From the NCBI GenBank assembly GCA_964448245.1, contig CAYUWF010000004.1, positions 1-47,898 on the forward strand: DNA of 47,898 nucleotides, read 5' to 3'. The number at the start of each line of letters is the position of its first letter. Within the stretch, counting starts at the first letter, position 1. Source of the stretch: an uncultured Anaerolineaceae bacterium. GTDB lineage: Bacteria > Chloroflexota > Anaerolineae > Anaerolineales > E44-bin32. Both the position numbers and the translations under genes were made by a program. The notes beneath the pieces were generated by a model. That model saw only the letters and a program-made list of their open reading frames with translations. It did not search any database and was not told the DNA's origin. Of this stretch, positions 5,321 through 47,763 are shown one piece after another.

Positions 5321-5523
5321 TTAGTAGGTTGCGGAGAAATGGCTACGGTCGTCAAACCCCCACCCCTGAACCTTGCGACACGGTGCAGGTGAGCATCCCG
5401 TAGGGGCTCCCCCTGCGCCCGCCGCGCCCCGCGTCCCTGGGATTCCTGCAGGGGGGAGGGGATCCCATTTCTGGGGGGGGTTGGGGGGTGAGGGGAGAAG
5501 AGGGTTTTTCAGCAACCTGTTAG
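5321..5523 (-). mobile_element. MITE-like structured repeat, copy A (inverted orientation)
   Basis: The left end TTAGTAGGTTGCGGAGAAATGGCTACGGTCGTCAAACCCCC is the reverse complement of the family 3' end. The right end is ..GGGTTTTTCAGCAACCTGTTAG. The core matches copies C and E in reverse complement (GAGCATCCCGTAGGGGCTCCCCCTGC). Flanked by TA on both sides. Confidence 0.7.
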
Positions 5524-12836: not shown

Positions 12837-12924
12837 AGTGTACACCAAGCGCCCTTACCTTCGGGTTCCCTTCTCCCGACCTCAAGGGTCGGGGTAGGGT
12901 TAGGGGGGTGAGGCGGAGGCGAGC

Positions 12925-13407
12925 TCAGCCCGCGGCCTCGATGGCCGGCTCCGCCGGCCCGGGAAGCTCGAATCCCCGCTGTCGCAGACGCCGCTTGAGA
13001 TCGATAAGGCTCTTCTGACCGAACCCCTCGACTGAGAGGAGAGCGCTGTCGCCCACCGCCAGCCGCTCGAGGGCCTGCCCGACTTGGGTGATCCCGGCCC
13101 GGGCCAGCGCGTCTTCGGCGCGCTTGCCCAGCTCCAGCTCGGCGATCGCCAACTCGGGCAAGGTCCGGGAGGTCTCGCGCGCCTCCTGGTCCGTCAGGTA
13201 CTCCTGGCGCGCCTGGAGCTTCTTGTAGAAGCGGTCGACCTGCCCTTCCGTGTCGACGATGCGCTGCTCGCCGGTGTAGAAGGGATGGCAGTTCGAACAG
13301 ACGTCGGTGTGGATCACCTCGACCGTCGATCCGGTGTGCCACGTGTTGCCGCACGCACAGGTGACGGTGGCATTCGGAAAGTACTTGGGATGGATCCCGA
13401 CTTTCAT
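12925..13407 (-). CDS. rpmE: 50S ribosomal protein L31 with a ~90-aa C-terminal extension resembling the RpoA C-terminal (HhH) domain
   Basis: [43 protein letters not shown] is canonical L31. The ORF runs on without a stop to 160 aa. Confidence 0.85.
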
Positions 13408-13805: not shown

Positions 13806-14312
13806 TCAGCCTTTCTTCTTGCTCGGCGTGCGCGCAGCGGGCTTGCCTGGCGCCGGTTTGGCGGGGGCCGGTTTGGCGGGGGCCGGTTTGGCGGCCGCCG
13901 GCCGAAGGGGAGCCGGCTTCGACTTGCGGGGCGTGCCGGCCGTCTTCTTGCCCGCCGGTTGCTTGGCCGGCTCTTCGATCTTCACCCGCCCGAGGCCGGG
14001 GGCCTCGATCTGATCGATCCGCACCCGCGTGTACGTCTGCCGGTGACCGAGCTTGCGCCGCCGCCGTTTCTTCGGCTGGTAGCGGAAGACGACGATCTTT
14101 TCCCCGCGCACTTCGCCTTGAATCGTTCCCAGGACGCGGGCGCCCGCGACCGACGGCGCTCCCACCAGCACCTGCCCGCCGTCCGCGGCCAATAACACTT
14201 CGGAGAATTCGAAGGTCTGACCTTTGTCCCCGTCCAGACGATCGACTTCGAGGTGTTCCCCTTCCCGGGCGATGTATTGCTTGCCGCCCGAGGTGACAAT
14301 GGCGTAGCGCAT
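13806..14312 (-). CDS. rplU: 50S ribosomal protein L21 with a Lys/Ala/Pro-rich C-terminal tail
   Basis: MRYAIVTSGGKQYIAREGE..FRYQPKKRRRRKLGHRQ.. is canonical L21. Start at ATG 14312, because the upstream 137 codons of the ORF-track model are repeat and promoter sequence. Confidence 0.9.
   Translation of the reverse strand: MRYAIVTSGGKQYIAREGEHLEVDRLDGDKGQTFEFSEVLLAADGGQVLVGAPSVAGARVLGTIQGEVRGEKIVVFRYQPKKRRRRKLGHRQTYTRVRIDQIEAPGLGRVKIEEPAKQPAGKKTAGTPRKSKPAPLRPAAAKPAPAKPAPAKPAPGKPAARTPSKKKG
13853..13897. repeat. 15-bp tandem repeat x3 inside rplU (encodes PAKPA repeats)
   Basis: CCGGTTTGGCGGGGG CCGGTTTGGCGGGGG CCGGTTTGGCGGCCG, with a degenerate fourth unit just upstream. Confidence 0.9.
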
Positions 14313-14489: not shown

Positions 14490-14728
14490 CCTACCCCTCC
14501 CTTCCCTTCGCCGAGCACCCCGTGGCCCTTTCGGCAAGCTCAGACCGTCCCGGTGTCCTACCGGGAGGGCAGGCTCCGCCGGGTGCCCCCAGCTTAGGCT
14601 GGGCTTGGGAAGACTGGTGGAAGCGCCCGGGGAGGGGAGGCTCTCATCATCTTCCCCCTCCCCGCCTAAGGCACCCAGCGCAACCGCCTCATCTCGCGGG
14701 GGTGGCGGGGAGAGGGGCCACAACCAGA
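14490..14728. repeat. Decayed relative of the structured repeat family
   Basis: Shares the ACCGTCCCGGTGTCCTACCGGGA hairpin module (14548-14566) and GGGGTGGCGGGGAGAGGGG-type G-tracts with copies at 19269 and 29241. The termini are not preserved. Confidence 0.35.
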
Positions 14729-19268: not shown

Positions 19269-19499
19269 CCAGGAGGCTGCTGAAAAAGCCCGTTCCCGCC
19301 TCAGCCCCCGACACCTCGCGGACACCGTCCCGGCGCCCTTCCGGGCGCAGTCTGTAAGGCCTCTCCGCCGACACCGCCCGAGCACGAGCGGTTTCGTGGC
19401 GGAGGGGGAGCAGAAGCACTGGGGGAGCCCCTTCGGGATGTCACGGGGGTCAGGGGTGGGGGGTTTGAGGACGGTCGCCATTTTTCAGCAACCTGCTAG
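19269..19499 (+). mobile_element. MITE-like structured repeat, copy B
   Basis: 5' ..AGGAGGCTGCTGAAAAAGCCCGTTCCCGCCTCAGCCCCC.. and 3' ..GGGGTGGGGGGTTTGAGGACGGTCGCCATTTTTCAGCAACCTGCTAG. The terminal CTAG overlaps the argF stop codon. Confidence 0.7.
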
Positions 19500-20497
19500 T
19501 CCCCCAGAGTTGCCACCATCAAGGCTTTGATCGTATGCATCCGGTTCTCAGCCTGGTCGAAGACGATCGAGTGCTCGGACTCGAAAACCTCTTCCGTCAC
19601 CTCCAGCCCGTCCAGCCCACTTTTCTGAAAGATGTCTTCGCCCACCCGGGTTTCGCGATTGTGGAAGGCCGGCAGGCAGTGCATGAATTTGACCTTGGGA
19701 TTGCCGGTCTTGCGGACCACGTCCATGCTCACCTGATACCCCTTGAGCAGCTTGAGGCGCTCGTCCCAGACCTCCTTGGGCTCGCCCATCGAGACCCATA
19801 CATCGGTATACAGGTAATCGACCCCGCCCACCCCATCAGCGACGTTCTCGGTCAGGGTCAGGCGGGCGCCGGTTTCCGCCGCGATCTGCCGGCAGGTCCG
19901 GACCAGCTCGTCCTCGGGCCACAGAGCCTTGGGCGCGCACAACCGCACATCCATCCCCAGCTTGCAGCCCATCACCATCAGGGAGTTGCCCATGTTGTTG
20001 TGCGCATCTCCCAGGTAGCAATAGGCGATCTCGCGCAGGGGTTTCTCGCTGTGCTCCGTCATCGTCAGGACATCGGCCAGCAACTGAGTTGGATGGAACT
20101 TGTCGGTCAGGCCGTTCCACACGGGGACCCCGGCGTAGCGGGCGAGCGTCTCGACCGTCTCCTGCGCGAATCCTCGGTATTCGATCCCGTCGTACAGACG
20201 GCCCAGCACGCGGGCGGTGTCCTTCATCGACTCCTTGTGGCCGATCTGCGATCCTTCCGGCCCGAGATAGGTGACGCGGGCCCCCTGATCGTATGCCGCT
20301 ACTTCGAAGGAACAGCGCGTCCGCGTCGAGGCCTTCTCGAAGATCAAGGCGATGTTCTTCCCCTTCAGACGGGGCTCTTCATAACCTCGGTACTTGGCCA
20401 CCTTCAGCTCGGCCGACAACTTGAGCAGGAACCCGAGTTCCTCAGGCGTGAAGTCGAGCTCCTTGACGAAGCTGCGGTTGCGAAGGTTGAAGGCCAT
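19496..20497 (-). CDS. argF: Ornithine carbamoyltransferase
   Basis: [12 protein letters not shown] carbamoyl-phosphate motif, ..HPTQLLAD.., ..FMHCLPAFH... 333 aa. An anabolic versus catabolic role cannot be decided from sequence. Confidence 0.93.
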
Positions 20498-20546: not shown

Positions 20547-20757
20547 TCCCCGGGCTGAAGCCCGGTTCAGGTCTAGGGTAGTCCCGTCCCCTAGGCCGGG
20601 TCCGAGAACGCAGCCCGCCCGGGCTAAAGCCGGGCCCACCGTCGGTCTGGCGATCGCAGCCATCGATCGGGCCCCCGTCCGGCTCCTCGTCGGCCCGGCC
20701 ATTAGGTCGGGTCCGAGGACTGCAGCCGCCCGGGCTAATGCCCGGGACTACCGTTGG
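20547..20757. repeat. Cluster of CCCGGGCT(G/A)A(A/T)GCCCGG hairpin repeats, including two ~48-bp direct repeats
   Basis: Hairpin at 20549-20564. Unit 1 at 20598-20645 (GGGTCCGAGAACGCAGCCCGCCCGGGCTAAAGCCGGGCCCACCGTCGG) and unit 2 at 20709-20757 (GGGTCCGAGGACTGCAGCCGCCCGGGCTAATGCCCGGGACTACCGTTGG). Confidence 0.6.
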
Positions 20758-29240: not shown

Positions 29241-29492
29241 GAGCAGGTTGAGATAGGTAGGGGACCATGGGGCGGCGACCCATCGTTTCTGTGGGCGGCC
29301 TCTCCTCGATCCGTCGGCCCCCACCCCCGTCCCTCGCGCACACCGTCCCGGTGTCCTTCCGGGAGCACCCCGGAGGGGCTCGCTCTCTCCATACACGCCG
29401 CGCCGGGGAGGCCTCTCCGCTCGGCGGAGAGGCCCACAGGGCTGCTACGCGAGGGGCAAGGGGGTGAGGCCGGAAGCTCGTCCGTCCTGTTG
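29241..29492 (-). repeat. Decayed copy of the MITE-like structured repeat (inverted orientation)
   Basis: The left end GAGCAGGTTGAGATAGG resembles the family TIR. The internal GGGGGTGGGGGCCGACGG / GAGCCCCTCCGGGGTGCTC modules (in reverse complement) and the GGCCTCTCCGC..GCGGAGAGGCC hairpin match family modules. The right end ..GGGGGTGAGGCCGGAAG..CCTGTTG is degenerate. Confidence 0.45.
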
Positions 29493-35748: not shown

Positions 35749-36769
35749 TGCCGCCTTCGCTTTTGATCGTCATTAGGGCGGGCGGGGTTCCGCCCGCCGC
35801 CGGCAGTCCGAGCTCGACCGGGCCCTGCGCCGCGCCGGCCTGGAATGCGAGCGGGTCGAGACGACCGGCCCGCGGCATGCCGAGCATCTGGCGCAGGAGG
35901 CCTGTCGCAGCGGCCGGACGATCCTCGTCACCGGCGGCAATGGACCCATCGGCGAAGTGCTAAATGGAATGGCCCTTGCCGGTCCGCAAGATGTCCTCGG
36001 CCCGGTCGGCCTCCTCCCGCTAGGAACGGCCAACGACCTCGTGCACAACCTCGGACTTCCAACGGACCTCGAGGCTTCGGCGGCCGCCATCGTTTCCGGT
36101 CGGACGCGGCGGATCGATCTGGGCCAGGCCAACGAATGGGTCTTAGCCAACCACTCGGCCGTCGGGCTCGAACCTGTCGTCACCCGGTACAACATCCGCA
36201 TGGTGCGCTGGCGCGGCCTGCTGCGTTGCCTGGTGGCGGCGCTGCGCGCCATCAACGACAAGCCGGCCTGGCAGATGCGCCTAGGTTGGGACGACGGTTC
36301 CTACGACGGGCCGATCAGCCTGGTGTCGGCGGGCAACGGGGTCGTGACCGGCGGCCTCTTCCGCATGGCGCCGGCGGCCGTGCCGGACGACCGCCGGCTG
36401 ACCTTCGTTTTCGGTTTGGCGCCGACCCGGCGCAAGAGGCTCAGCCTGCTCCCGCGCACGATCTCGGGCAGCTTCGTCAACGACCCCGGCATCCAGCAGC
36501 ACCACACCACGCGCTTGACGCTCGACTCGACCACTCCCACGCCGATCCAAGTCGACGGCGAGGTCCGCGCCGAGGCCATTCGCCAGGTGACCTACCGTCG
36601 TCCCGCCGCTACCCCCCGACCCCCTCTCCGCGGACAAGGCTCGGGTGCGCAAGCGCCATGGCCGAGAGGCCCTCCGCTTCGCTACGGGCGGCTCCGCGCG
36701 GGGCGGAGGTCTGGGGATTGGGGGCTTGACGCCATAGCCATTTTTCCGCATGGGGAGTTGCCGGTGTGA
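35748..36769 (+). pseudogene. Diacylglycerol/lipid kinase family gene (YegS/DagK-like) with an apparent 1-nt frameshift near the 5' end
   Basis: Frame 1 gives MPPSLLIVIRAGG. Frame 3 continues GSARRRQSELDRALRRAGLECERVETTG..ILVTGGNGPIGEVLNGMA..LLPLGTANDL... Frame 3 has no canonical start before GTG 35957. The ATG 35748 overlaps the mgtE stop. Confidence 0.6.
36612..36752 (+). repeat. Decayed short-variant copy of the structured repeat, inside the 3' end of the lipid-kinase ORF
   Basis: CCCCCCGACCCCCTCTCCGC.. and ..GAGAGGCCCTCCGCTTCGCTACGGGCGGCTCCGCGCGGGGCGGAGGTCTGGGG.. are nearly identical to copy D (46430-46505). The 3' end is degenerate (..GCCATTTTTCCGCA). Confidence 0.55.
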
Positions 36770-37419
36770 ACTCTGGGGCGGTACCTTACGGCGTCTGGCG
36801 CTTCTTGCGCTGGTTCTTCCTCCACCTCTACACCGACCTGGCTTGGTCCTATGATGCGGTTGCCTGGCTCAGCTCCTTCGGAGGCTGGTCTTCCTGGCGT
36901 CGCACGGCGCTGGATCGGGTTTCACCGAGCTCGACGGTGCTGGAGGTCGGGTTCGGCACAGGCCATCTGCTGGCCGAGGCGTCCCAATATGACGTCCGCC
37001 TCTTCGGGGTCGATGCTTCGCCCCAGATGGTTCGCATCACCGCGCGGCGGCTGCGCCGCGCCGGACTTCCCCTCGCCATCGCCCGGGCCGAAGCTCAGGC
37101 GTTGCCGTTCCCGCGCCACGCGTTTCCTGCGGCGCTCTCGACCTTTCCCAGCGAATACATCTTCGACGAGGCTTCGCTGGCAGATATTCGCCGCGTGCTT
37201 ACCCCGGGGGCGTCCCTCGTCGTAGTGGTTTCCGCCCGGATTCTCCCCCGGTCTCTATGGGAGTACGTCATCCGATGGCTCTACGACAAGACAGGCCAGT
37301 CGCCCGGGCCAGACCCCCGATACCTCGAGCCGTTCCATCGGGCCGGCTTCGCCGCGCACTACGAAACCGTCGAAGTGCCGGGAGCGTCGGTCCTGCAAAT
37401 CATCGCGCGCGCGCCATAG
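36766..37419 (+). CDS. Class I SAM-dependent methyltransferase (Methyltransf_11-like)
   Basis: Motif I VLEVGFGTGH, ..GVDASPQMV.., ..LTPGASLVVVV... The GTG 36766 overlaps the upstream stop (GTGA). Confidence 0.8.
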   Translation: MNSGAVPYGVWRFLRWFFLHLYTDLAWSYDAVAWLSSFGGWSSWRRTALDRVSPSSTVLEVGFGTGHLLAEASQYDVRLFGVDASPQMVRITARRLRRAGLPLAIARAEAQALPFPRHAFPAALSTFPSEYIFDEASLADIRRVLTPGASLVVVVSARILPRSLWEYVIRWLYDKTGQSPGPDPRYLEPFHRAGFAAHYETVEVPGASVLQIIARAP

Positions 37420-37450
37420 CTCCCCGCGAGCTTGAAGCTCGCGGGGAGCT
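37418..37450 (+). terminator. Perfect 15-bp hairpin after the methyltransferase gene
   Basis: AGCTCCCCGCGAGCT (37418-37432), TGA loop, AGCTCGCGGGGAGCT (37436-37450). There is no T-tract, so intrinsic-terminator function is uncertain. Confidence 0.5.
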
Positions 37451-37512
37451 CGGAAACCCGCACACCTGCCCTCCTGGCAGGACACCGGGACGGTGTGGCG
37501 GGCGGTGCCGGA

Positions 37513-37528: not shown

Positions 37529-38356
37529 ATGAACGGCGCTCGACTGACGCATGACGGCGACCTCGTCCAGCTGATCGACACCAAGAACAAGCCGTTCATC
37601 TTCCGCTTGCAGGCCGGCCAGGAATTGCAGACGCACCGCGGCGTGGTCCGTCACGCCGATCTAACCGGCATTCCCTGGGGCACCCGTGTCGCCAGCCATC
37701 TCGGCCAGCCGTTCTTCATCCTCAGCCCCACCCTCCACGATCTGCTGCTCCACCTGCCGCGCCAGTCGCAGATCGTTTTCCCCAAGGAGGTCGGCTACAT
37801 CCTCCTGCGCCTGTCCGTCGGCTCCGGCGCGCGTCTCATCGAGGCCGGCACCGGTTCGGGCGCGCTGACCCTGGCGCTCGCCTGGGCGGTCGGGCCGGAA
37901 GGTCATGTCTACTCCTACGATCGGCGCGGCGACATGCAGGCCCTTGCCCTTCGCAACCTGGCCCGAGTCGGTTTGGAGAGGAGGGTGACCTTCCGCGAAC
38001 GGCCCGTCGAGGAGGGCTTCGCCGAGGCGGATGTTGATGCGCTCTTCCTCGACCTGCCCGATCCGCACCTGGTCTTGCCCCAGGTGCGTCAGGCGCTCCG
38101 TCCCGGGTCTCCCTTCGGGGCGATTCTTCCGACGGTAAATCAAATCGCCTCGCTGCTGGCGGCGATGGAGGTCAACGAGTTCGCCTTCGCCGAGGTCTGC
38201 GAGATCCTGCTCCGCTTCTACAAGACGGTCCCTCAGCGCCTGCGCCCCCTCGACCGGATGGTGGCCCACACTGGCTACCTGGTCTTCGCCCGGCCGCTGG
38301 CGCCCGGTGCCAGCCCCCCGCCGGCCGACGGTTGGGCGACGGCCGAGGCCGTCTAG
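37529..38356 (+). CDS. trmI: tRNA (adenine58-N1)-methyltransferase TrmI/GCD14 family
   Basis: ..IVFPKEVGYILLRL.., SAM motif ..LIEAGTGSGALTLALA.., ..ALFLDLPDP.., ..HTGYLVFARP... Confidence 0.9.
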   Translation: MNGARLTHDGDLVQLIDTKNKPFIFRLQAGQELQTHRGVVRHADLTGIPWGTRVASHLGQPFFILSPTLHDLLLHLPRQSQIVFPKEVGYILLRLSVGSGARLIEAGTGSGALTLALAWAVGPEGHVYSYDRRGDMQALALRNLARVGLERRVTFRERPVEEGFAEADVDALFLDLPDPHLVLPQVRQALRPGSPFGAILPTVNQIASLLAAMEVNEFAFAEVCEILLRFYKTVPQRLRPLDRMVAHTGYLVFARPLAPGASPPPADGWATAEAV

Positions 38357-38383
38357 TTTCAGGCCGGCGCCGGTCGTCGTCGG

Positions 38384-38968
38384 ATGGCACTCGATCTCCC
38401 GCAACGCCTCGAGGTCACCCTCCACGGCCGGACACCCGGCGTCGCCGCGGAGTGGGCCGCGCGCCCGGCAGCCGTCCTGGTGTCGCTCGTACGGCACGAC
38501 GCCCGATGGCACCTGCTTTTCACCCGGCGCACCGAAAACGTCGAGACTCACCGGGGCCAGGTTTCCTTCCCCGGCGGGAGGGTGGAAGCCGAGGACGCCG
38601 ACGCCGTGGCCGCTGCGCTGCGCGAGGCCGAAGAAGAGATCGGCATCCGGCCTTCAGACGTGCGCGTCCTGGGGCAAATGGACTCGCTGCTGACCGTCAC
38701 GCAATACCTCATCACGCCGATCGTCGGAGTCCTCCCCTGGCCCTACCCCCTTCGACCGGATCCGGTCGAGGTTGCCGGCGTCTTCCTCATCCCGCTCGAG
38801 TGGCTCGCCGACCCGGCCCACCTCGAGACCCGAACGCGCCAGCCCCTCGCCGGCGGCCCGGACGTCCCGGTCTACAGCTACGCGCCGTACGAAGGCAACG
38901 TTCTGTGGGGAGCCTCGGCGCGGATCACCCTCGACCTGCTGAACCTGCTTGGCCTGCGCCAGCCGTGA
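38384..38968 (+). CDS. Nudix hydrolase, CoA pyrophosphatase type
   Basis: Nudix box GGRVEAEDADAVAAALREAEEEIGI, preceded by LLFTRRTENVETHRGQVSFPGG (CoA-pyrophosphatase signature). Confidence 0.88.
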   Translation: MALDLPQRLEVTLHGRTPGVAAEWAARPAAVLVSLVRHDARWHLLFTRRTENVETHRGQVSFPGGRVEAEDADAVAAALREAEEEIGIRPSDVRVLGQMDSLLTVTQYLITPIVGVLPWPYPLRPDPVEVAGVFLIPLEWLADPAHLETRTRQPLAGGPDVPVYSYAPYEGNVLWGASARITLDLLNLLGLRQP

Positions 38969-38974
38969 AAGAGA

Positions 38975-38998
38975 AGGGAGCGGCGCGAGCCGCTCCCT
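38975..38998. terminator. Hairpin between convergent Nudix and rplY genes
   Basis: 10-bp stem AGGGAGCGGC / GCCGCTCCCT with a GCGA loop. Confidence 0.6.
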
Positions 38999-39021
38999 CG
39001 ATTCGCACAACAGGCTCCGTC

Positions 39022-39747
39022 CTACTTCGACGGAGACTCTCTCTTTCCCGGCTGCTTCTTGGCCGGAGACTCCTTCTTCGCCGAAGGCGTCTCGTCCCCG
39101 ATCTCTTCGTCTTCCTTCTTGCCGCGCCCGATGATCTCGGGCTCGGGCGCCACGGCCACCGTCGGCGCCACTACTTCCTCGAGTTTCTCTTCGACCTGGT
39201 AGATCACCCGGGCGACGACGGCTTGAGGGTCGGTCAGGAGGCGCACGCCCTTGCCCAGGAACAGGTCGCCGACCATGATGCGTGCTTCCATCGTCGCCAG
39301 CGACTCGAGGTCGACGGCGATGTACGACGGCAGGTCCTGCGGCAGCGCCTCGACTTCGATCTCGGAGACGCCGGTGACCATCACACCACCGAAGATCTTG
39401 ACCGCCAGCGCTTCGCCAGTGAGCTCGAGCGGGACCGTGGTACGAATGGCGACGTCCAACGCCACCTTCATCAGATCGACGTGCTCCACGATCCGCCTCA
39501 GCGGATGCCGCTGAAGCTCGCGGACCAAGACCTTGTGCGTCTGGCCGCTGAGCTCGAGTTCCAACAGCGTCGAAGCGCTGGCCTGCTCCAGGACGCGCGT
39601 CGCCGCCAGCGACTCCATTTCGATGGCGACCGGCTCGGTGCCGCGCCCGTAGAGGATCCCCGGCATCTGGCCGGCACGGCGCAGGGCGCCAACTTGCTTG
39701 CCTATCACCGTCCGGGGTCTCGCCTGCAGAACTCGGTTCTCCGCCAT
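39022..39747 (-). CDS. rplY: 50S ribosomal protein L25 / general stress protein Ctc
   Basis: ..RPRTVIGKQVGALRRAGQMPGILYG.. L25 N-domain, a Ctc-type C-domain, and an acidic/lysine-rich tail. Confidence 0.92.
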   Translation of the reverse strand: MAENRVLQARPRTVIGKQVGALRRAGQMPGILYGRGTEPVAIEMESLAATRVLEQASASTLLELELSGQTHKVLVRELQRHPLRRIVEHVDLMKVALDVAIRTTVPLELTGEALAVKIFGGVMVTGVSEIEVEALPQDLPSYIAVDLESLATMEARIMVGDLFLGKGVRLLTDPQAVVARVIYQVEEKLEEVVAPTVAVAPEPEIIGRGKKEDEEIGDETPSAKKESPAKKQPGKRESPSK

Positions 39748-39825
39748 TCGTTTCTCCCTTGGGCGCCTCTCACCCGCGTGCCGGGTTACCCTCGCCCGAT
39801 CGATTCCAGCCCCCGGATCTCTGCT

Positions 39826-40311
39826 TCACTTCCGGCGCAGCAAGAGACTCCCGCCGATCAACATCAGTCCGAGAACGGCCCCAGCCATGATCCCGGCCAC
39901 GGCCGCGCCACGCGTGTCCAGTACCGTCTCGACATCGCCGTAGACCTCGCGCGCCAGCAAGATCAACGTGCTGCTTTGATCCAGATGAGCGGTCTCGGCG
40001 ACGGTCAGGCCGATGCGCGAGGCGTGCAGCCGAGCGTCCTGCGCCACGGCTCCCCCGACGAAGCTCTGGTCAATGCCGATTTCATCAGCGCGGGCGGCGA
40101 TGATGGCCGACTGGTGGGCCACCAAGCTCTCGGCGTCGATACGGCCGGCCGCCGCCTGCCGCAATTCGACCTCGGTCGCCAAGATGCGGTTGGCGCCGCC
40201 TTGCTGGATAAGGACCGTGACCGCCTCGACCGTCTCGACGGTGCCGCCGTCGAGGTGGATGACATTCCCCTCGATCGCCTCGAGCCCCTCGACGTCCGCT
40301 GTCTCACTCAA
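39826..40311 (-). CDS. Hypothetical tail-anchored protein with repetitive (possibly beta-helical) N-terminal region
   Basis: Balanced composition, a C-terminal TM helix AAVAGIMAGAVLGLMLIGGSLLL followed by RRK, a TTG start with GAGGTG upstream, and a strong promoter 60-85 nt upstream. Confidence 0.55.
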   Translation of the reverse strand: MSETADVEGLEAIEGNVIHLDGGTVETVEAVTVLIQQGGANRILATEVELRQAAAGRIDAESLVAHQSAIIAARADEIGIDQSFVGGAVAQDARLHASRIGLTVAETAHLDQSSTLILLAREVYGDVETVLDTRGAAVAGIMAGAVLGLMLIGGSLLLRRK

Positions 40312-40368
40312 TCGGCACCTCGCCCGGAAGGCATCGTCCGCATCGCCGGCCCGTTCGCCAGCCGACGC

Positions 40369-40397
40369 ATTCTAATCGGCCCAGACGCGCCCGTCAA
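40369..40397 (-). promoter_or_regulatory. Consensus-like sigma70 promoter
   Basis: Minus strand: -35 TTGACG (40392-40397), 17-nt spacer, -10 TAGAAT (40369-40374). Confidence 0.65.
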
Positions 40398-40415
40398 TAC
40401 AACCGATTCCGTGGA

Positions 40416-40649
40416 TAGAAGGCTACTGAAAAAGCCTGTTTCCATCTCACCCCCCGACCCCCTCTCCGCCGGCAGCGCCCGAGCAAGAGCGGAATCGTGG
40501 CGGAGAGGGGCAGAAGCTCTGGGGCCTCCCCCTGCAGGAATCTCCAGGGCCATGAGCCCAAGCGGGTGCAGGGGGAGCCCCTTCGGGATGCTTCGCGAGG
40601 GTCAGGGGTGGGGGTTTGACGGCGGTCGCTATTTTCCAGCAACCTGATA
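40416..40649 (+). mobile_element. MITE-like structured repeat, copy C (long variant)
   Basis: TA-GAAGGCTACTGAAAAAGCCTGTTTCCATCTCACCCCCCGACCCCCTCTCCGCC ... GGGGTGGGGGTTTGACGGCGGTCGCTATTTTCCAGCAACCTGA-TA. Lies in a divergent intergenic region. Confidence 0.75.
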
Positions 40650-40719
40650 CTGGTCGGTGGTCCGTGGAGCCCGTTTTTTGACCGCGCTCTCCACCGGCTG
40701 CTGGCCATTGCCGAGTCGA

Positions 40720-40728
40720 TGTTAGAAT
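40720..40728 (+). promoter_or_regulatory. Extended -10 element (TGTTAGAAT)
   Basis: TG 40720-40721, TAGAAT 40723-40728. The -35 is weak. About 45 nt upstream of ATG 40774. Confidence 0.4.
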
Positions 40729-40773
40729 GACCGATTGCCCTGGCTTCGAGAGGAAGGCCTGAGGAAGCGGGTG

Positions 40774-41433
40774 ATGCGCGTGCTGGTTATCGTGCTGTTC
40801 GCGGCCTTTATTCCGCCGACGGCGCGCGCCGTGGCCCAGGCGCCGGGTTATGCCGAGATCACCTCCCCGACGGCCGGCCAGGCGCTGCTGGGGCTGATCT
40901 CGATCGACGGAAGCGCCGATCACCCATCGTTCGTGCGCTACGATCTCGCGTTCGCCTACGATCCGAACCCGACCGAGACGTGGTACCCCCTGGGAGGCCC
41001 GATCCGGACCAGGGCGAGGCAAAGCACCCTCGGCCTGTGGGACACATCAGAGCTCAGCCCGGGCATTTACCAATTGCGCCTGCAGGTTTTCCTGGACCGC
41101 GGGGCCGTCCTGGAGGACGTCGCCGGCGGTCTGCGCGTCGGCCTCCCGGCCTTAGTCCCCCTCTCCACCGCAACCCCAGCGGCGACAACGCCCACCGCCC
41201 TGGCGGCGCCGACCACCAGGCCGCTTCCGGCGCAGTCCGGCCGCGCACCGGCTGCCGATCCCGTGGCGTTGGCCGTCGGCATCGGCGGATTAATGGCCGC
41301 CGCCTTCCTGATCATCCTGGCCGCTTACCTTCCCTTGCGGCGAGGCCTGGCGCTTTGGGCCGGGAACCTGCGCATGCGACGCGTCCTCCGTCAGGATTCT
41401 CGGCGCCGAAGGCGCGAGCGAGGCGGTCCTTGA
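40774..41433 (+). CDS. Hypothetical secreted/membrane-anchored protein (signal peptide, Ig-like domain, Thr/Pro/Ala linker, C-terminal TM)
   Basis: MRVLVIVLFAAFIPPTARAVAQA signal-like N-terminus, a C-terminal helix LAVGIGGLMAAAFLIILAAYL, and an Arg-rich tail. GAGGAAG RBS before GTG 40771 / ATG 40774. Confidence 0.6.
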   Translation: MRVLVIVLFAAFIPPTARAVAQAPGYAEITSPTAGQALLGLISIDGSADHPSFVRYDLAFAYDPNPTETWYPLGGPIRTRARQSTLGLWDTSELSPGIYQLRLQVFLDRGAVLEDVAGGLRVGLPALVPLSTATPAATTPTALAAPTTRPLPAQSGRAPAADPVALAVGIGGLMAAAFLIILAAYLPLRRGLALWAGNLRMRRVLRQDSRRRRRERGGP

Positions 41434-46291: not shown

Positions 46292-46368
46292 GGAGGAGTC
46301 TCCCGAAGGACTTACGCGCTTGTCTCGTCGAGCACGGTTCAAAGGCCGCCGCCCGACCCGCCGTCCGC

Positions 46369-46542
46369 TGGCTCCTGAACAAGCCTGTTCCCGCCTCACC
46401 CCCTGACCCCCTCTCCGCCGACAGGGCCCGAGCATGAGCGGAATTGTGGCGGAGAGGCCCTCCGCTTCGCTACGGGCGGCTCCGCACGGGGCGGAGGGTC
46501 TGGGGGTTTGACGGCGGTCGCTATTTTTCAGCAACCTGCTAG
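46369..46542 (+). mobile_element. MITE-like structured repeat, copy D (short variant)
   Basis: ..GGCTCCTGAACAAGCCTGTTCCCGCCTCACCCCCTGACCCCCTCTCCGCC .. GGGGGTTTGACGGCGGTCGCTATTTTTCAGCAACCTGCTAG. The terminal CTAG overlaps the stop codon of the gene at 46539. Confidence 0.7.
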
Positions 46543-47477
46543 ATCCCGGCGCGCAGTTGGACCAGATGGGAGACGTAAGGTTGGTTGTCGACGTACTCGA
46601 CCCCCACCAGCCACGTGGTCCACGCGTACTCGCTGCCCGTTGCCTCGGCCGGCCGATGCAGAGCGTAGTAGTTCAGGTTGGTGTATTCCGACGGCCAGCG
46701 CGCTTCGCGCAGGGTCGGTCCGATGAGCGTCTCGCTGCAGCCCCGGCTGATCTCGCCGATGGCTACTTCGTCCAGGCGCGGAAGCACGACCTCTTTGAAG
46801 CTGCCGGTGATCGGCCCGCCGCTCAACTGTGTACCCCAATCCACGGGGGAATCACTCCCCATCACGTTGGCGACGTCGCTCGCCCGGTAGCTCACCTCCG
46901 GGTTCCACCAGTCGAAGCGCACAGTCAGCCCACGGCGCGGGCTGACGAGCGCCTGCAGGCTCTGCCCATCGCGGTTGGCGATGCTGGCGCGCAACGCTTC
47001 GAGCAACGTCGGCACCCGCCCGTCACCGCAGAAGGCCTCGGCCGGCACGTCCTGTGTGAGGTCCAGGGCACTTACCCAGCCTCTCCCGCCGGCGAGTCGG
47101 TTGATTTCGACCCAGGTTGAGCTCCCCAAGTTCGTGGCGTTTCCGGTGAGGGCCAGGCCACGTCGGTCGAATTCCAGCTCCCCGACGTCTCCTCCCGAGA
47201 CCCCTGCGACCTGCCGGACGGTCAGGGTCTCCCCCTTGGGAACGCCGAAAACGGCGTGCGAGAACTGGAAGCCCGGCCCCGGTGTGAAGAGATACAGCGG
47301 GGTGCGGGTGACGACGGCGGCCGCCGTCAGGGTGGAAGGGAGTACAGCGGCCCCGGGGAGAATCGGGATGGCGCCCCGCGTGCAGCCGAGGGCGGCCGCG
47401 CCGGCGACGAGAAGCACAAGGAGGATTCGCCAGCCGCGCCGGACGGACATGGTGCGATCGCGTCGGAAGGGGATCAT
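46539..47477 (-). CDS. Hypothetical lipoprotein
   Basis: Signal peptide with lipobox (..RRGWRILLVLLVAGAAALGC..). The mature part has an SH3-like segment (..GETLTVRQVAG..WVEINRL..GWVSALDL..). Alternative start at ATG 47450. Confidence 0.65.
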   Translation of the reverse strand: MIPFRRDRTMSVRRGWRILLVLLVAGAAALGCTRGAIPILPGAAVLPSTLTAAAVVTRTPLYLFTPGPGFQFSHAVFGVPKGETLTVRQVAGVSGGDVGELEFDRRGLALTGNATNLGSSTWVEINRLAGGRGWVSALDLTQDVPAEAFCGDGRVPTLLEALRASIANRDGQSLQALVSPRRGLTVRFDWWNPEVSYRASDVANVMGSDSPVDWGTQLSGGPITGSFKEVVLPRLDEVAIGEISRGCSETLIGPTLREARWPSEYTNLNYYALHRPAEATGSEYAWTTWLVGVEYVDNQPYVSHLVQLRAGI

Positions 47478-47499: not shown

Positions 47500-47763
47500 T
47501 TAGCAGGCTGCTGAGCAAGCCTGTCCCCACCTCACCCCCCGACCCCCTCTCCACCAACAGGGCCCGAGCACGAGCGGATCCGTGGCGGAGAGGGGGCAGA
47601 AGTTCTGGGGGGTGGGGGGAGCGAAGCTCCCCCACCCCCCAGGAAACCCTCCCCTCCCCCTACAAGAATCTCCGGGCGATGAGCCCAAGCAGGTGCAGGG
47701 GGAGGGGGAGGGGTTAGGGGTAGGGGTTTGACGGCGGTCGCCATTTTTCAGCACCCTGTTAGG
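47500..47763 (+). mobile_element. MITE-like structured repeat, copy E (long variant)
   Basis: T-TA-GCAGGCTGCTGAGCAAGCCTGTCCCCACCTCACCCCCCGACCCCCTCTCCACC ... GGGGTAGGGGTTTGACGGCGGTCGCCATTTTTCAGCACCCTGT-TA-G. Both TIRs are present and flanked by TA. Confidence 0.75.

What the first reader, a model, noticed from the sequence alone, without database searches (positions are those of the whole stretch)
40416..40649. Dense MITE-like structured repeat family with TA-flanked terminal inverted repeats (at least 5 intact and 3-4 decayed copies in 48 kb)
Intact copies lie at 5321-5523 (inverted), 19269-19499, 40416-40649, 46369-46542 and 47500-47763. Decayed relatives lie at 36612-36752, 29241-29492, 14490-14728 and possibly 12838-12925. 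The shared 5' end is (TA)GCAGGCTGCTGAAAAAGCCTGTTCCCGCCTCACCCCCCGACCCCCTCTCCGCC. The shared 3' end is GGGGTGGGGGTTTGACGGCGGTCGCCATTTTTCAGCAACCTGC(TA). The two ends are reverse complements over GCAGGYTGCTGAAAAA. The 5' C-tracts can pair with the 3' G-tracts, so the whole unit can fold into one long imperfect hairpin with nested sub-hairpins (CCCCTCTCCGCC..GGCGGAGAGGGG; CCCCCTGCA..TGCAGGGGG). The core is modular. There is a long variant (copies at 5321, 40416, 47500) and a short variant carrying CCCTCCGCTTCGCTACGGGCGGCTCCGCRCGGGGCGGAGG (46369, 36612). An extra ACCGTCCCGGYGYCCTWCCGGG hairpin module is present at 19328-19345, 29346-29364 and 14548-14566. TA dinucleotides flank the three best-preserved copies, as expected for a Tc1/mariner-IS630-type target duplication. 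No transposase is in the window, so these would be non-autonomous. About one copy per 6 kb in a housekeeping region is unusually dense. The copies also generate many spurious ORFs (..PLSAGSARARAESWRRG.. peptides).
Basis: partly seen in the sequence, partly recalled or inferred. Interest (0 to 1): 0.62.

Follow-up and report, generated by a model that had tools for sequence, protein, structure and literature searches.

The report
IS5-type miniature transposon family (MITE)
The repeats are a real family of small gene-less jumping elements, but they use the ends and the four-base CTAG target of an IS5-type insertion sequence, not the IS630/mariner type first proposed, so this is an ordinary kind of element in an apparently unnamed family.

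Summary
The repeat family is real. The 2.43-Mb MAG holds about 157 family loci, about 1% of the assembly, including 38-46 complete elements of 136-448 bp.

Both ends read CTAG-CAGGYTGCTGAAAAA. Where the flanking 4-mers depart from CTAG they match as direct repeats (10 of 43 positions against 2.1 expected, p<1e-4). That points to a 4-bp duplication rather than TA.

The same 19-nt end bounds 1.2-1.8-kb insertion sequences in many phyla. These encode IS5-family transposases (NF033581). Two genomes of the same family carry such an IS, but the window's own MAG has none.

Relatives show uninterrupted sites:
- an hsp20 gene split in this genome is intact in three congeners;
- one congener carries a copy at the same stop-codon CTAG in the opposite orientation.

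The core is a collinear chain of up to eight hairpin modules, with 23 architectures among 38 copies. It shows no RNA covariation and no Rfam match. Copies are at most 93% alike, so the family looks old and probably inactive.

Verdict: a new member of a known kind, an IS5-derived MITE. The IS630/TA reading is not supported.

The parts
5321..5523 (-). Complete copy, subfamily B (203 bp including flanking 4-mers). It is flanked by a perfect TTAG/TTAG direct repeat and fills the gap between two convergent genes.
19269..19499 (+). Complete copy, subfamily A, architecture L-M1-M2-M6-R (231 bp). The right-hand CTAG (19496-19499) carries the TAG stop codon of the ornithine/aspartate carbamoyltransferase gene 19496-20497(-).
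40415..40650 (+). The reported copy, architecture L-M2-M5-M6-R (236 bp including 4-mers ATAG/ATAC). It lies between two divergent genes, 19 nt from a TTGACG-17-TAGAAT promoter-like site. It is absent at the orthologous site of congener G003.
46365..46542 (+). Short variant L-M2-M3-R with a degenerate left end. The right-hand CTAG (46539-46542) carries the TAG stop of gene 46539-47477(-). Congener G002 has a copy at the same CTAG in the opposite orientation.
47500..47762 (+). Complete copy L-M2-M4-M5-R (263 bp), flanked by a perfect TTAG/TTAG direct repeat. The orthologous intergenic spacers of G001, G003 and G004 are about 290 bp shorter.
36594..36750 (+). Relic copy lacking both end tips. It replaces the last ~10 codons of gene 35957-36769(+), whose reading frame now runs through the relic. 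It is absent in G002 and G003.
29317..29475 (+). Stretch sharing internal modules (M1-like and M2-like hairpins) with the family. It has different arms that are single-copy in this genome, so it is not a member by its ends.
14541..14573 (+). Stand-alone 33-nt hairpin unit (CAGACCGTCCCGGTGTCCTACCGGGAGGGCAGG), related to modules M1/M8. It is not a decayed MITE.
37458..37509 (+). Stand-alone copy of module M8 (52 nt), 98% identical to the M8 inside copies C97:6656-6977 and C79:9055-9502. The same unit is multicopy in congener G004.

Best explanation

Proposed mechanism:
- The element carries only the transposase's binding and cleavage sites, the 15-19-nt ends CAGGYTGCTGAAAAA, at the tips of long C-rich and G-rich arms.
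- The DDE transposase of a resident or visiting IS inserts it into the rare tetranucleotide CTAG (less often TTAG or CTAA) by a 4-bp staggered cut, so the 4-mer is duplicated.
- CTAG contains TAG, and insertions inside genes are purged. Surviving copies therefore sit in intergenic DNA and often exactly on a TAG stop codon, which the duplication preserves.
- The core is a collinear chain of up to eight hairpin modules. It probably lost modules repeatedly by deletion between G-runs and C-runs.
- In this genome no partner transposase is assembled and the copies are 7-30% diverged, so the family is probably a fossil of amplification that followed the split from its congeners.

Shown here: the ends, the copy number, the 4-bp direct-repeat signal, the IS5 partner in other genomes, the uninterrupted orthologous sites, and the lack of covariation.

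Inferred: trans-mobilisation, the deletion origin of the variants, and present inactivity.
For: Family and ends:
- 131 termini with the consensus CTAGCAGGYTGCTGAAAAA, against 6 in a shuffled genome.
- 46 left/right-paired elements of 136-446 bp.
- 157 loci covering 1.07% of the assembly.

Four-base duplication:
- At non-consensus positions, 10 of 43 match left to right, against 2.1 +/- 1.3 in 10,000 permutations.
- The palindromic relation is not enriched.
- G002 copies add ACAG/ATAG and CTGG/CCGG, each matching left to right at one non-consensus position.

Partner IS:
- The exact end occurs in more than 120 stretches from many phyla.
- Thirteen of 14 IS-sized end pairs encode homologous transposases at 46-65% identity.
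- These carry PF05598 + PF01609 and score 261 bits on NF033581, above the 140-bit cut-off.
- G014 and G015, in the same taxonomic family, carry this IS. Its ends are TTTTTCAGCAACCTGCTAG and TTTTTCCGCAGCCTGCTAG. The first equals the subfamily A right end and the second differs from the subfamily B right end by one base.

Mobility:
- hsp20 at C3:7005-7572 is split by a copy. Removing the copy plus one 4-mer restores TYY|LRER, as in the intact orthologues of G001, G003 and G004.
- G003 and G001 lack the copies at 40416, 46369 and 47500.
- G003 and G002 lack the relic at 36612.
- G002 has a copy in opposite orientation at the same stop-codon CTAG as 46369.
- Each G000 copy's nearest relative among the G000 and sampled G002 copies compared lies in G000.

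Target logic:
- 18 of 145 termini supply the stop codon of the flanking gene.
- CTAG occurs at 0.21 of expectation, and 192 of about 916 non-genic CTAGs are stop codons.

Comparator: MITEPsy1/ISPsy2 has the end GGAAGGTCTGAAAAAGCC and an experimentally shown 4-nt CTAG/YTAA duplication (PMC3189936).
Against: - No IS5-type transposase, or any PF01609 match, is present in the window's own MAG or in its three MITE-bearing or MITE-free congeners as assembled. Trans-mobilisation in this lineage is therefore inferred. The MAG is about 90% complete, and IS copies are often lost from short-read bins.
- Only the 19-nt ends are shared with the IS, not subterminal sequence. The MITE is not a simple internal-deletion derivative of any IS seen.
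- Because CTAG is palindromic, a 2-bp TA duplication with element ends G...C predicts the same occupied and empty sequences at consensus sites. The choice of 4 bp rests on statistics over diverged copies.
- Four of 14 IS-sized elements in other phyla have flanking 4-mers that differ at an outer base.
- Cross-species intergenic DNA is too diverged for base-exact empty sites, except at hsp20.
Confidence: 0.85

Rival explanations
1. IS630/Tc1-mariner-type MITE. The element ends are G...C, the target is CTAG, and only the central TA is duplicated, as for IS630. A DDE_3 transposase would mobilise it.
For: TA lies at the centre of nearly all flanks. From my own knowledge, IS630 inserts at CTAG and duplicates TA. 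At consensus sites this model cannot be told apart from the 4-bp model. Some IS-sized elements elsewhere have flanks such as TTAG...CTAG that fit a TA duplication in a YTAR target without any mutation.
Against: The first base of the left 4-mer co-varies with the second-last base before the right flank (T/T five times, G/G twice, A/A once). That is expected only if all four bases are duplicated. Positions -5 and -2 are equally and less conserved than the inner repeat. All 13 transposases found between these ends are IS5-family, none IS630. I did not run a dedicated DDE_3 (PF13358) search of the genome.
Confidence: 0.06
2. A selected structured element (ncRNA, terminator or protein-binding hairpin array) that spreads or is kept because of its fold. 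The inverted ends would be incidental.
For: The unit folds well (z = -2.6). Many copies lie directly after stop codons, where a hairpin could act as a terminator or mRNA stabiliser. Some modules recur outside the elements.
Against: The RNAalifold covariation term is positive (+3.3), and only 2 of 45 pairs show a double change, each in one sequence, while many pairs are broken. There is no Rfam match at gathering thresholds. Copies occur in all intergenic configurations. The stop-codon association is what CTAG targeting alone predicts. Module content is highly variable. Transcription could not be tested.
Confidence: 0.05
3. A REP/BIME-like mosaic of small palindromic units spread by a RAYT-type (IS200/IS605-like) enzyme or by recombination. 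The IS5-like ends would then be just one more module.
For: The core is a mosaic of hairpin units. Units M1/M8 occur alone at 14541-14573 and 37458-37509 and are multicopy in G004.
Against: The arms and ends are the most constant parts and occur as matched left/right pairs with a 4-bp direct repeat. Module order is collinear, as expected from deletion derivatives rather than free assortment. I did not search for a RAYT gene.
Confidence: 0.03

Closest known systems
MITEPsy1 and its presumed parent ISPsy2 (IS5 family) of Pseudomonas syringae pv. phaseolicola (PMC3189936)
   Same: Both are gene-less short elements. The ends are of the same pattern (GGAAGGTCTGAAAAAGCC there, CAGGCTGCTGAAAAAGCC here). 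Both insert at CTAG or YTAA with a 4-nt duplication. Both have an IS5-family partner that shares only the ends.
   Different: MITEPsy1 is 100 nt, low in copy number and shown experimentally to transpose. This family is 136-448 bp with long C/G-rich arms and a modular hairpin core, has about 100-160 loci, has no resident partner, and its transposition is untested.
IS5-family insertion sequences of the NCBIfam NF033581 (transpos_IS5_4) type, e.g. L019:1176-2543 (Terriglobia MAG), L064:6066-7608 (Rhodospirillales MAG), G014:C24 and G015:C221
   Same: Identical 19-nt ends including the flanking CTAG, and the same target.
   Different: These are 1.2-1.8 kb and encode a ~380-aa DUF772 + DDE_Tnp_1 transposase. 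Their subterminal sequence is unrelated to the MITE arms.
Correia elements (CREE/NEMIS) of Neisseria and RUP of Streptococcus pneumoniae (from my own knowledge)
   Same: Abundant intergenic hairpin-forming MITEs of 100-150 bp with inverted ends. They are often next to gene ends and exist as length variants.
   Different: Those duplicate TA. RUP is linked to IS630-type elements, and Correia has no known transposase. The ends are unrelated to the ones here.
BIMEs / REP mosaics of enterobacteria (from my own knowledge)
   Same: A mosaic, combinatorial arrangement of small palindromic units in intergenic DNA.
   Different: BIMEs have no terminal inverted repeats and no target duplication, and they are linked to RAYT enzymes. 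Here the mosaic is enclosed by IS5-type ends and keeps one collinear order.

Membership tests
Bacterial MITE (non-autonomous DDE-transposon derivative) | Short (under ~600 bp), multicopy, no coding capacity of its own | tested here: met
   Complete copies are 136-448 bp. There are 157 loci. ORFs crossing copies have no Pfam match and lie antisense to real genes.
Bacterial MITE (non-autonomous DDE-transposon derivative) | Terminal inverted repeats shared with an autonomous IS | tested here: met
   The ends CTAGCAGGYTGCTGAAAAA bound IS5-family IS in other phyla and in confamilial G014 and G015.
Bacterial MITE (non-autonomous DDE-transposon derivative) | Target-site duplication | tested here: met
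   A 4-bp direct-repeat signal at non-consensus bases, p<1e-4. Perfect TTAG/TTAG at two window copies.
Bacterial MITE (non-autonomous DDE-transposon derivative) | Unoccupied orthologous sites / insertion polymorphism | tested here: met
   hsp20 is intact in G001, G003 and G004. Copies are absent at four window sites in congeners (three in G001/G003, the 36612 relic in G002/G003), and one copy lies in opposite orientation at the same CTAG in G002. Within-species polymorphism was not testable.
IS5 family, IS5 group (as source of the ends) | Partner encodes a DDE_Tnp_1-type IS5 transposase | tested here: met
   PF05598 + PF01609. NF033581 scores 261-262 bits, above the 140-bit cut-off. Thirteen homologues lie between the same ends.
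IS5 family, IS5 group (as source of the ends) | 4-bp duplication of a YTAR target | tested here: met
   The flanking 4-mers are CTAG 32, TTAG 9, CTAA 5, with direct-repeat statistics. Literature comparator in PMC3189936.
IS5 family, IS5 group (as source of the ends) | Partner transposase present in the same genome | tested here: not met
   No match in G000 by protein, NF033581, PF01609 or tblastn. The MAG is 90% complete.
IS630 / Tc1-mariner-derived MITE | TA-only duplication | tested here: not met
   Outer bases of the 4-mer co-vary as direct repeats. The test is statistical, because consensus sites cannot discriminate.
IS630 / Tc1-mariner-derived MITE | Ends shared with an IS630-type (DDE_3) element | tested here: not met
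   All transposases found between these ends are IS5-family.
Structured ncRNA family | Covariation that preserves base pairs | tested here: not met
   Covariation term +3.31. Only 2 of 45 pairs have a double change, and many pairs are broken. Power is low, with 7 sequences.
Structured ncRNA family | Match to a curated RNA family | tested here: not met
   The Rfam 15 gathering-threshold scan of the whole window gave 0 matches.
Structured ncRNA family | Independent transcription | not testable with these tools
REP/BIME (RAYT-associated) | Associated Y1 (RAYT) transposase; no inverted ends and no duplication | not tested
   No RAYT search was run. The presence of inverted ends and a duplication argues against membership.

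The most novel reading that the evidence does not exclude
One IS5 clade keeps an almost invariant 19-nt end (CTAG-CAGGCTGCTGAAAAA) across at least ten phyla and has repeatedly nucleated unrelated MITE families. In 120 sampled loci there were 53 short end pairs of 68-262 bp against 14 IS-sized ones. In this lineage, reported as Anaerolineae, the cargo between the ends is not a deletion remnant of the IS. It is a collinear chain of small hairpin units, and some of these (M1/M8) also disperse on their own and sit inside an element with different arms. On this reading, small palindromic repeats hitch-hike on, or are assembled into, MITEs.
Probability: 0.3. Interest if true: 0.45.

Novelty: new member of a known kind. 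Interest (0 to 1): 0.27.

Why it matters
For annotation:
- The family explains about 1% of this MAG, many spurious ORFs and some contig breaks (30 of 396 contig ends).
- It also explains one pseudogene (hsp20) and one gene whose C-terminus is now encoded by a relic.

For transposon biology:
- It is one more clear case of an IS5-type MITE that lands on the rare word CTAG and therefore on TAG stop codons, in an uncultured lineage reported as Chloroflexota.
- The same 19-nt end is shared across many phyla with unrelated cores.

Neither point changes current understanding of how MITEs work.

Tried and rejected
- Autonomous copy in the MAG: I looked for long elements bounded by these ends. All candidates were chance end-like matches.
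- Base-exact empty sites in congeners G001, G003 and G004: intergenic DNA at about 70% coding identity is too diverged. Only the length differences and the coding hsp20 site were usable.
- Near-identical strains through exact-protein look-ups of two flanking genes: only short Logan contigs came back, and they end inside the repeats.
- Literature search for the end sequence: nothing relevant.
Removing the element alone does keep the frame. But removing the element plus one 4-mer is what reproduces the orthologous YYLRER, and the gene carries two further frameshifts.
- Second family at 29241-29492: its arms are single-copy in this genome.
- Special role at stop codons: rejected, because the frequency matches the share of non-genic CTAGs that are stop codons.

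Full report
**Observation**

The window (contig C4 of a 2.43-Mb, 198-contig, 67% G+C MAG) holds a real repeat family.
- The repeat finder recovered the shared left arm, right arm and inner blocks at the reported coordinates.
- BLAST of the window copies against the whole assembly gave 161 merged loci on 93 contigs.
- A repeat of that search with all complete copies gave 157 loci. Of these, 107 are 120 bp or longer, and together they cover 1.07% of the assembly.
- Thirty of 396 contig ends lie within 150 bp of a family match. The family therefore also fragments the assembly, and the true copy number is probably higher.
- nhmmer profiles of the two ends found 63 left and 70 right ends. These pair into 46 elements of 136-446 bp.

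**Ends**

I anchored on AGGYTGCTGAAAAA and tallied the flanking bases. The conserved sequence reads CTAG-CAGGYTGCTGAAAAA at both ends.
- There are 131 such termini (2 mismatches or fewer), against 6 in a shuffled genome.
- Conservation stops abruptly outside the C of CTAG.
- The four outer bases are conserved at 71-82%. The inner repeat positions are mostly at 90% or more.

There are two subfamilies with matched ends:
- Subfamily A has left ...AGGCTGCTGAAAAAGCCCGTTCCC and right ACGGTCGCCATTTTTCAGCAACCTGCTAG.
- Subfamily B has left ...AGGTTGCTGAAAAACCCTCTTCCC and right ACCGTAGCCATTTTTCCGCAACCTGCTAG.

**Target duplication**

CTAG is palindromic. A TA duplication with element ends G...C and a 4-bp CTAG duplication therefore look the same at consensus sites.

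They differ where the flank departs from CTAG. I tested this on 38 cleanly paired elements.
- At positions where either 4-mer is non-consensus, 10 of 43 are identical between left and right as direct repeats.
- The expectation from 10,000 permutations is 2.1 +/- 1.3 (p<1e-4).
- The palindromic relation is not enriched (3 of 50 against 1.9).
- At the first base, the left/right combinations are T/T five times, G/G twice and A/A once. That is not expected if this base were flank on one side and element on the other.

Two window copies have perfect TTAG/TTAG repeats (5321/5520 and 47500/47759), and the reported copy has ATAG/ATAC. Copies fetched from congener G002 add ACAG/ATAG and CTGG/CCGG, each matching left to right at one non-consensus position.

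I conclude that the duplication is 4 bp, with the target CTAG preferred over TTAG and CTAA. This is a statistical inference on diverged copies. I put about 0.75-0.8 on 4 bp against 2 bp.

**Partner element**

They come from Acidobacteriota, Alpha-, Beta-, Gamma- and Deltaproteobacteria, Dehalococcoidia, NC10, Nitrospira, Planctomycetota, Gemmatimonadota, Myxococcota, Binatia, Verrucomicrobiota and others.

Pairing the ends in those loci gave 53 short pairs (68-262 bp) and 14 IS-sized pairs (0.97-1.78 kb).
- Thirteen of the 14 long ones encode homologous proteins at 46-65% identity to the one in L019.
- The two I examined are 380-385 aa, with PF05598 (DUF772) + PF01609 (DDE_Tnp_1).
- They score 261-262 bits on NCBIfam NF033581 'IS5 family transposase', whose cut-off is 140 bits.
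- The short pairs in other phyla share only the ends with the window's family. Their interiors are unrelated.

Within the window's own taxonomic family, G014 and G015 each carry one such IS of about 1.36 kb.
- Their right ends are TTTTTCAGCAACCTGCTAG and TTTTTCCGCAGCCTGCTAG. The first equals the subfamily A right end and the second differs from the subfamily B right end by one base.
- Both genomes also hold matches to the MITE.

The window's own MAG has no trace of this transposase or of any PF01609 domain. The tests were a protein search, an NF033581 search, a PF01609 search and tblastn at E<=10. No long element bounded by the ends exists there either.

The closest documented analogue I found is MITEPsy1/ISPsy2 of Pseudomonas syringae. 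Its end is GGAAGGTCTGAAAAAGCC, and a 4-nt duplication of CTAG or YTAA was shown by trapping (PMC3189936).

**Mobility**

The family is present in congeners G002 and G004 and in four other genera of the family. BLAST does not detect it in congeners G001 and G003. The 12-kb right part of the window is syntenic in all four congeners.

- At the sites of the copies at 40416, 46369 and 47500, the spacers of G001 and G003 are 210-325 bp shorter.
- At the site of the relic at 36612, G002 and G003 have no insert.
- Intergenic sequence is too diverged for exact junctions at these sites.

A base-exact case lies elsewhere in the genome. The hsp20 gene at C3:7005-7572(-) is split by copy C3:7166-7341.
- Removing the element plus one of its flanking 4-mers (CTAC/CTCC) gives ...T-Y-Y-L-R-E-R.
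- That is the sequence of the uninterrupted orthologues in G001 (SYYLRER), G003 (TYFVRER) and G004 (TYHVRER).
- The gene also has two further single-base frameshifts, so it is a pseudogene.

At the 46369 site, G002 carries a copy abutting the same stop-codon CTAG but in the opposite orientation: the left arm is next to the gene, not the right arm. This is best explained by an independent insertion into the same target.

Each G000 copy's closest relative among the G000 and sampled G002 copies compared is another G000 copy, and seven of eight G002 copies pair within G002. That fits lineage-specific amplification. The best within-genome identity is about 93%, and 75-90% is typical. With no partner assembled, the family is probably no longer active here.

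**Position relative to genes**

I used a crude GC3-based gene call (1,664 genes, 74% coding).
- No complete copy lies inside a called gene (hsp20, a frameshifted pseudogene, was not called).
- Copies occur in convergent, divergent and tandem spacers.
- Eighteen of 145 termini supply the TAG stop codon of the gene that reads towards them. In the window these are the carbamoyltransferase gene at 19496 and the gene at 46539.

This needs no special function.
- CTAG is strongly avoided in this genome, with 1,501 sites against 7,269 expected from base composition.
- 192 of the roughly 916 CTAGs outside gene bodies are stop codons, about 21%.
- About a quarter of insertions sit on stop codons, which is a similar share.

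**Core and structure**

The interior is a collinear chain of up to eight hairpin modules (M1-M8) between constant arms. There are 23 architectures among 38 complete copies, from L-R with almost nothing between them to L-M1-M2-M3-M7-M8-M5-M6-R (448 bp). The order is kept in all but one copy. Module borders lie in G-runs and C-runs. Repeated internal deletion from longer forms is therefore the simplest origin, but this is an inference.

The 40416 copy folds at -114.9 kcal/mol, with z = -2.6 against shuffles. An RNAalifold analysis of seven short-variant copies gives a positive covariation term (+3.3). Only 2 of 45 pairs show a double change, and many pairs are broken. Rfam has no match in the window. 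I see no evidence for a selected RNA structure, though the power of this test is limited.

**The 'decayed' copies**

- 36594-36750 is a true relic. Both end tips are gone, and the relic has replaced the last ~10 codons of the upstream gene, whose frame now runs through it.
- 29241-29492 shares the M1-like and M2-like modules, but its arms are single-copy in this genome. A similar unit sits in G002 at the site orthologous to 40416.
- 14490-14728 shares only a 33-nt hairpin unit.
- 37458-37509 is a stand-alone M8, 98% identical to the M8 inside two full copies and multicopy in G004.
- 12838-12925 has no detectable relation to the family.

**Comparison and novelty**

By its ends, target, duplication and partner, this is an IS5-derived MITE. 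It works like MITEPsy1 and differs in size, arms, modular core and abundance. I found no description of these ends in the searchable literature.

Earlier notes of this scan report many similar CTAG-targeting IS5-type MITEs in other genomes. They also report two notes on this same family elsewhere in this genome. Those are unchecked AI notes, and I used them as leads only. The statement that the genome belongs to the Anaerolineae comes from such notes and was not tested here.

The family is best filed as a new member of a known kind. Interest is modest.

Noticed in passing
G000 contig C3:7005-7572 (minus strand), outside the window: An hsp20 (alpha-crystallin) gene is a pseudogene with three lesions: a MITE insertion at TYY|LRER, a +1 frameshift in a CCCGGG run upstream, and a -1 frameshift 12 nt downstream of the insertion. 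Orthologues in G001, G003 and G004 are intact.
   Followed up: yes
window 35957-36769: The reading frame of this gene runs through the MITE relic, which replaces the last ~10 codons seen in G002 and G003. About 50 C-terminal residues are now repeat-encoded.
   Followed up: partly
window 40312-40775 and loci L012-L014: The spacer between two divergent genes keeps conserved TAGAAT-type promoter boxes on both sides in all congeners. Its middle differs in each species: nothing in G003, this MITE in G000, a GATTGGAGATTTGAG-like tandem array in G004, and a different hairpin element in G002. It looks like an insertion hot spot.
   Followed up: partly
window 37418-37452: A perfect hairpin, GCTCCCCGCGAGCTTGAAGCTCGCGGGGAGC, is multicopy in congener G004 (30-40-nt hits, many at 90-100% identity). 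It is a separate small palindromic repeat family.
   Followed up: no
window 20578-20634 and 20689-20745: Two 57-nt direct repeats (75% identical, 111 nt apart) lie in the spacer between the carbamoyltransferase gene and the next gene. They are unrelated to the MITE.
   Followed up: no
window 13837-13896: A 15-nt tandem repeat (GCCGGTTTGGCGGGG-like, three overlapping 30-nt copies).
   Followed up: no
whole genome G000: CTAG occurs 1,501 times against 7,269 expected from base composition (0.21). By crude gene calls, TAG is used as the stop codon in about a third of genes (534 of 1,583), which is high for a 67% G+C genome.
   Followed up: partly
loci L015-L134 (many phyla): The exact 19-nt end bounds 53 short pairs (68-262 bp, with length clusters near 125, 131 and 140 bp) and 14 IS-sized pairs. 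The interiors of the short ones are unrelated to the window's family.
   Followed up: partly
   Followed up: no
window 38332-40647 (+), 771-aa ORF: This long ORF has no Pfam match and runs antisense to real genes and through the MITE.
   Followed up: partly
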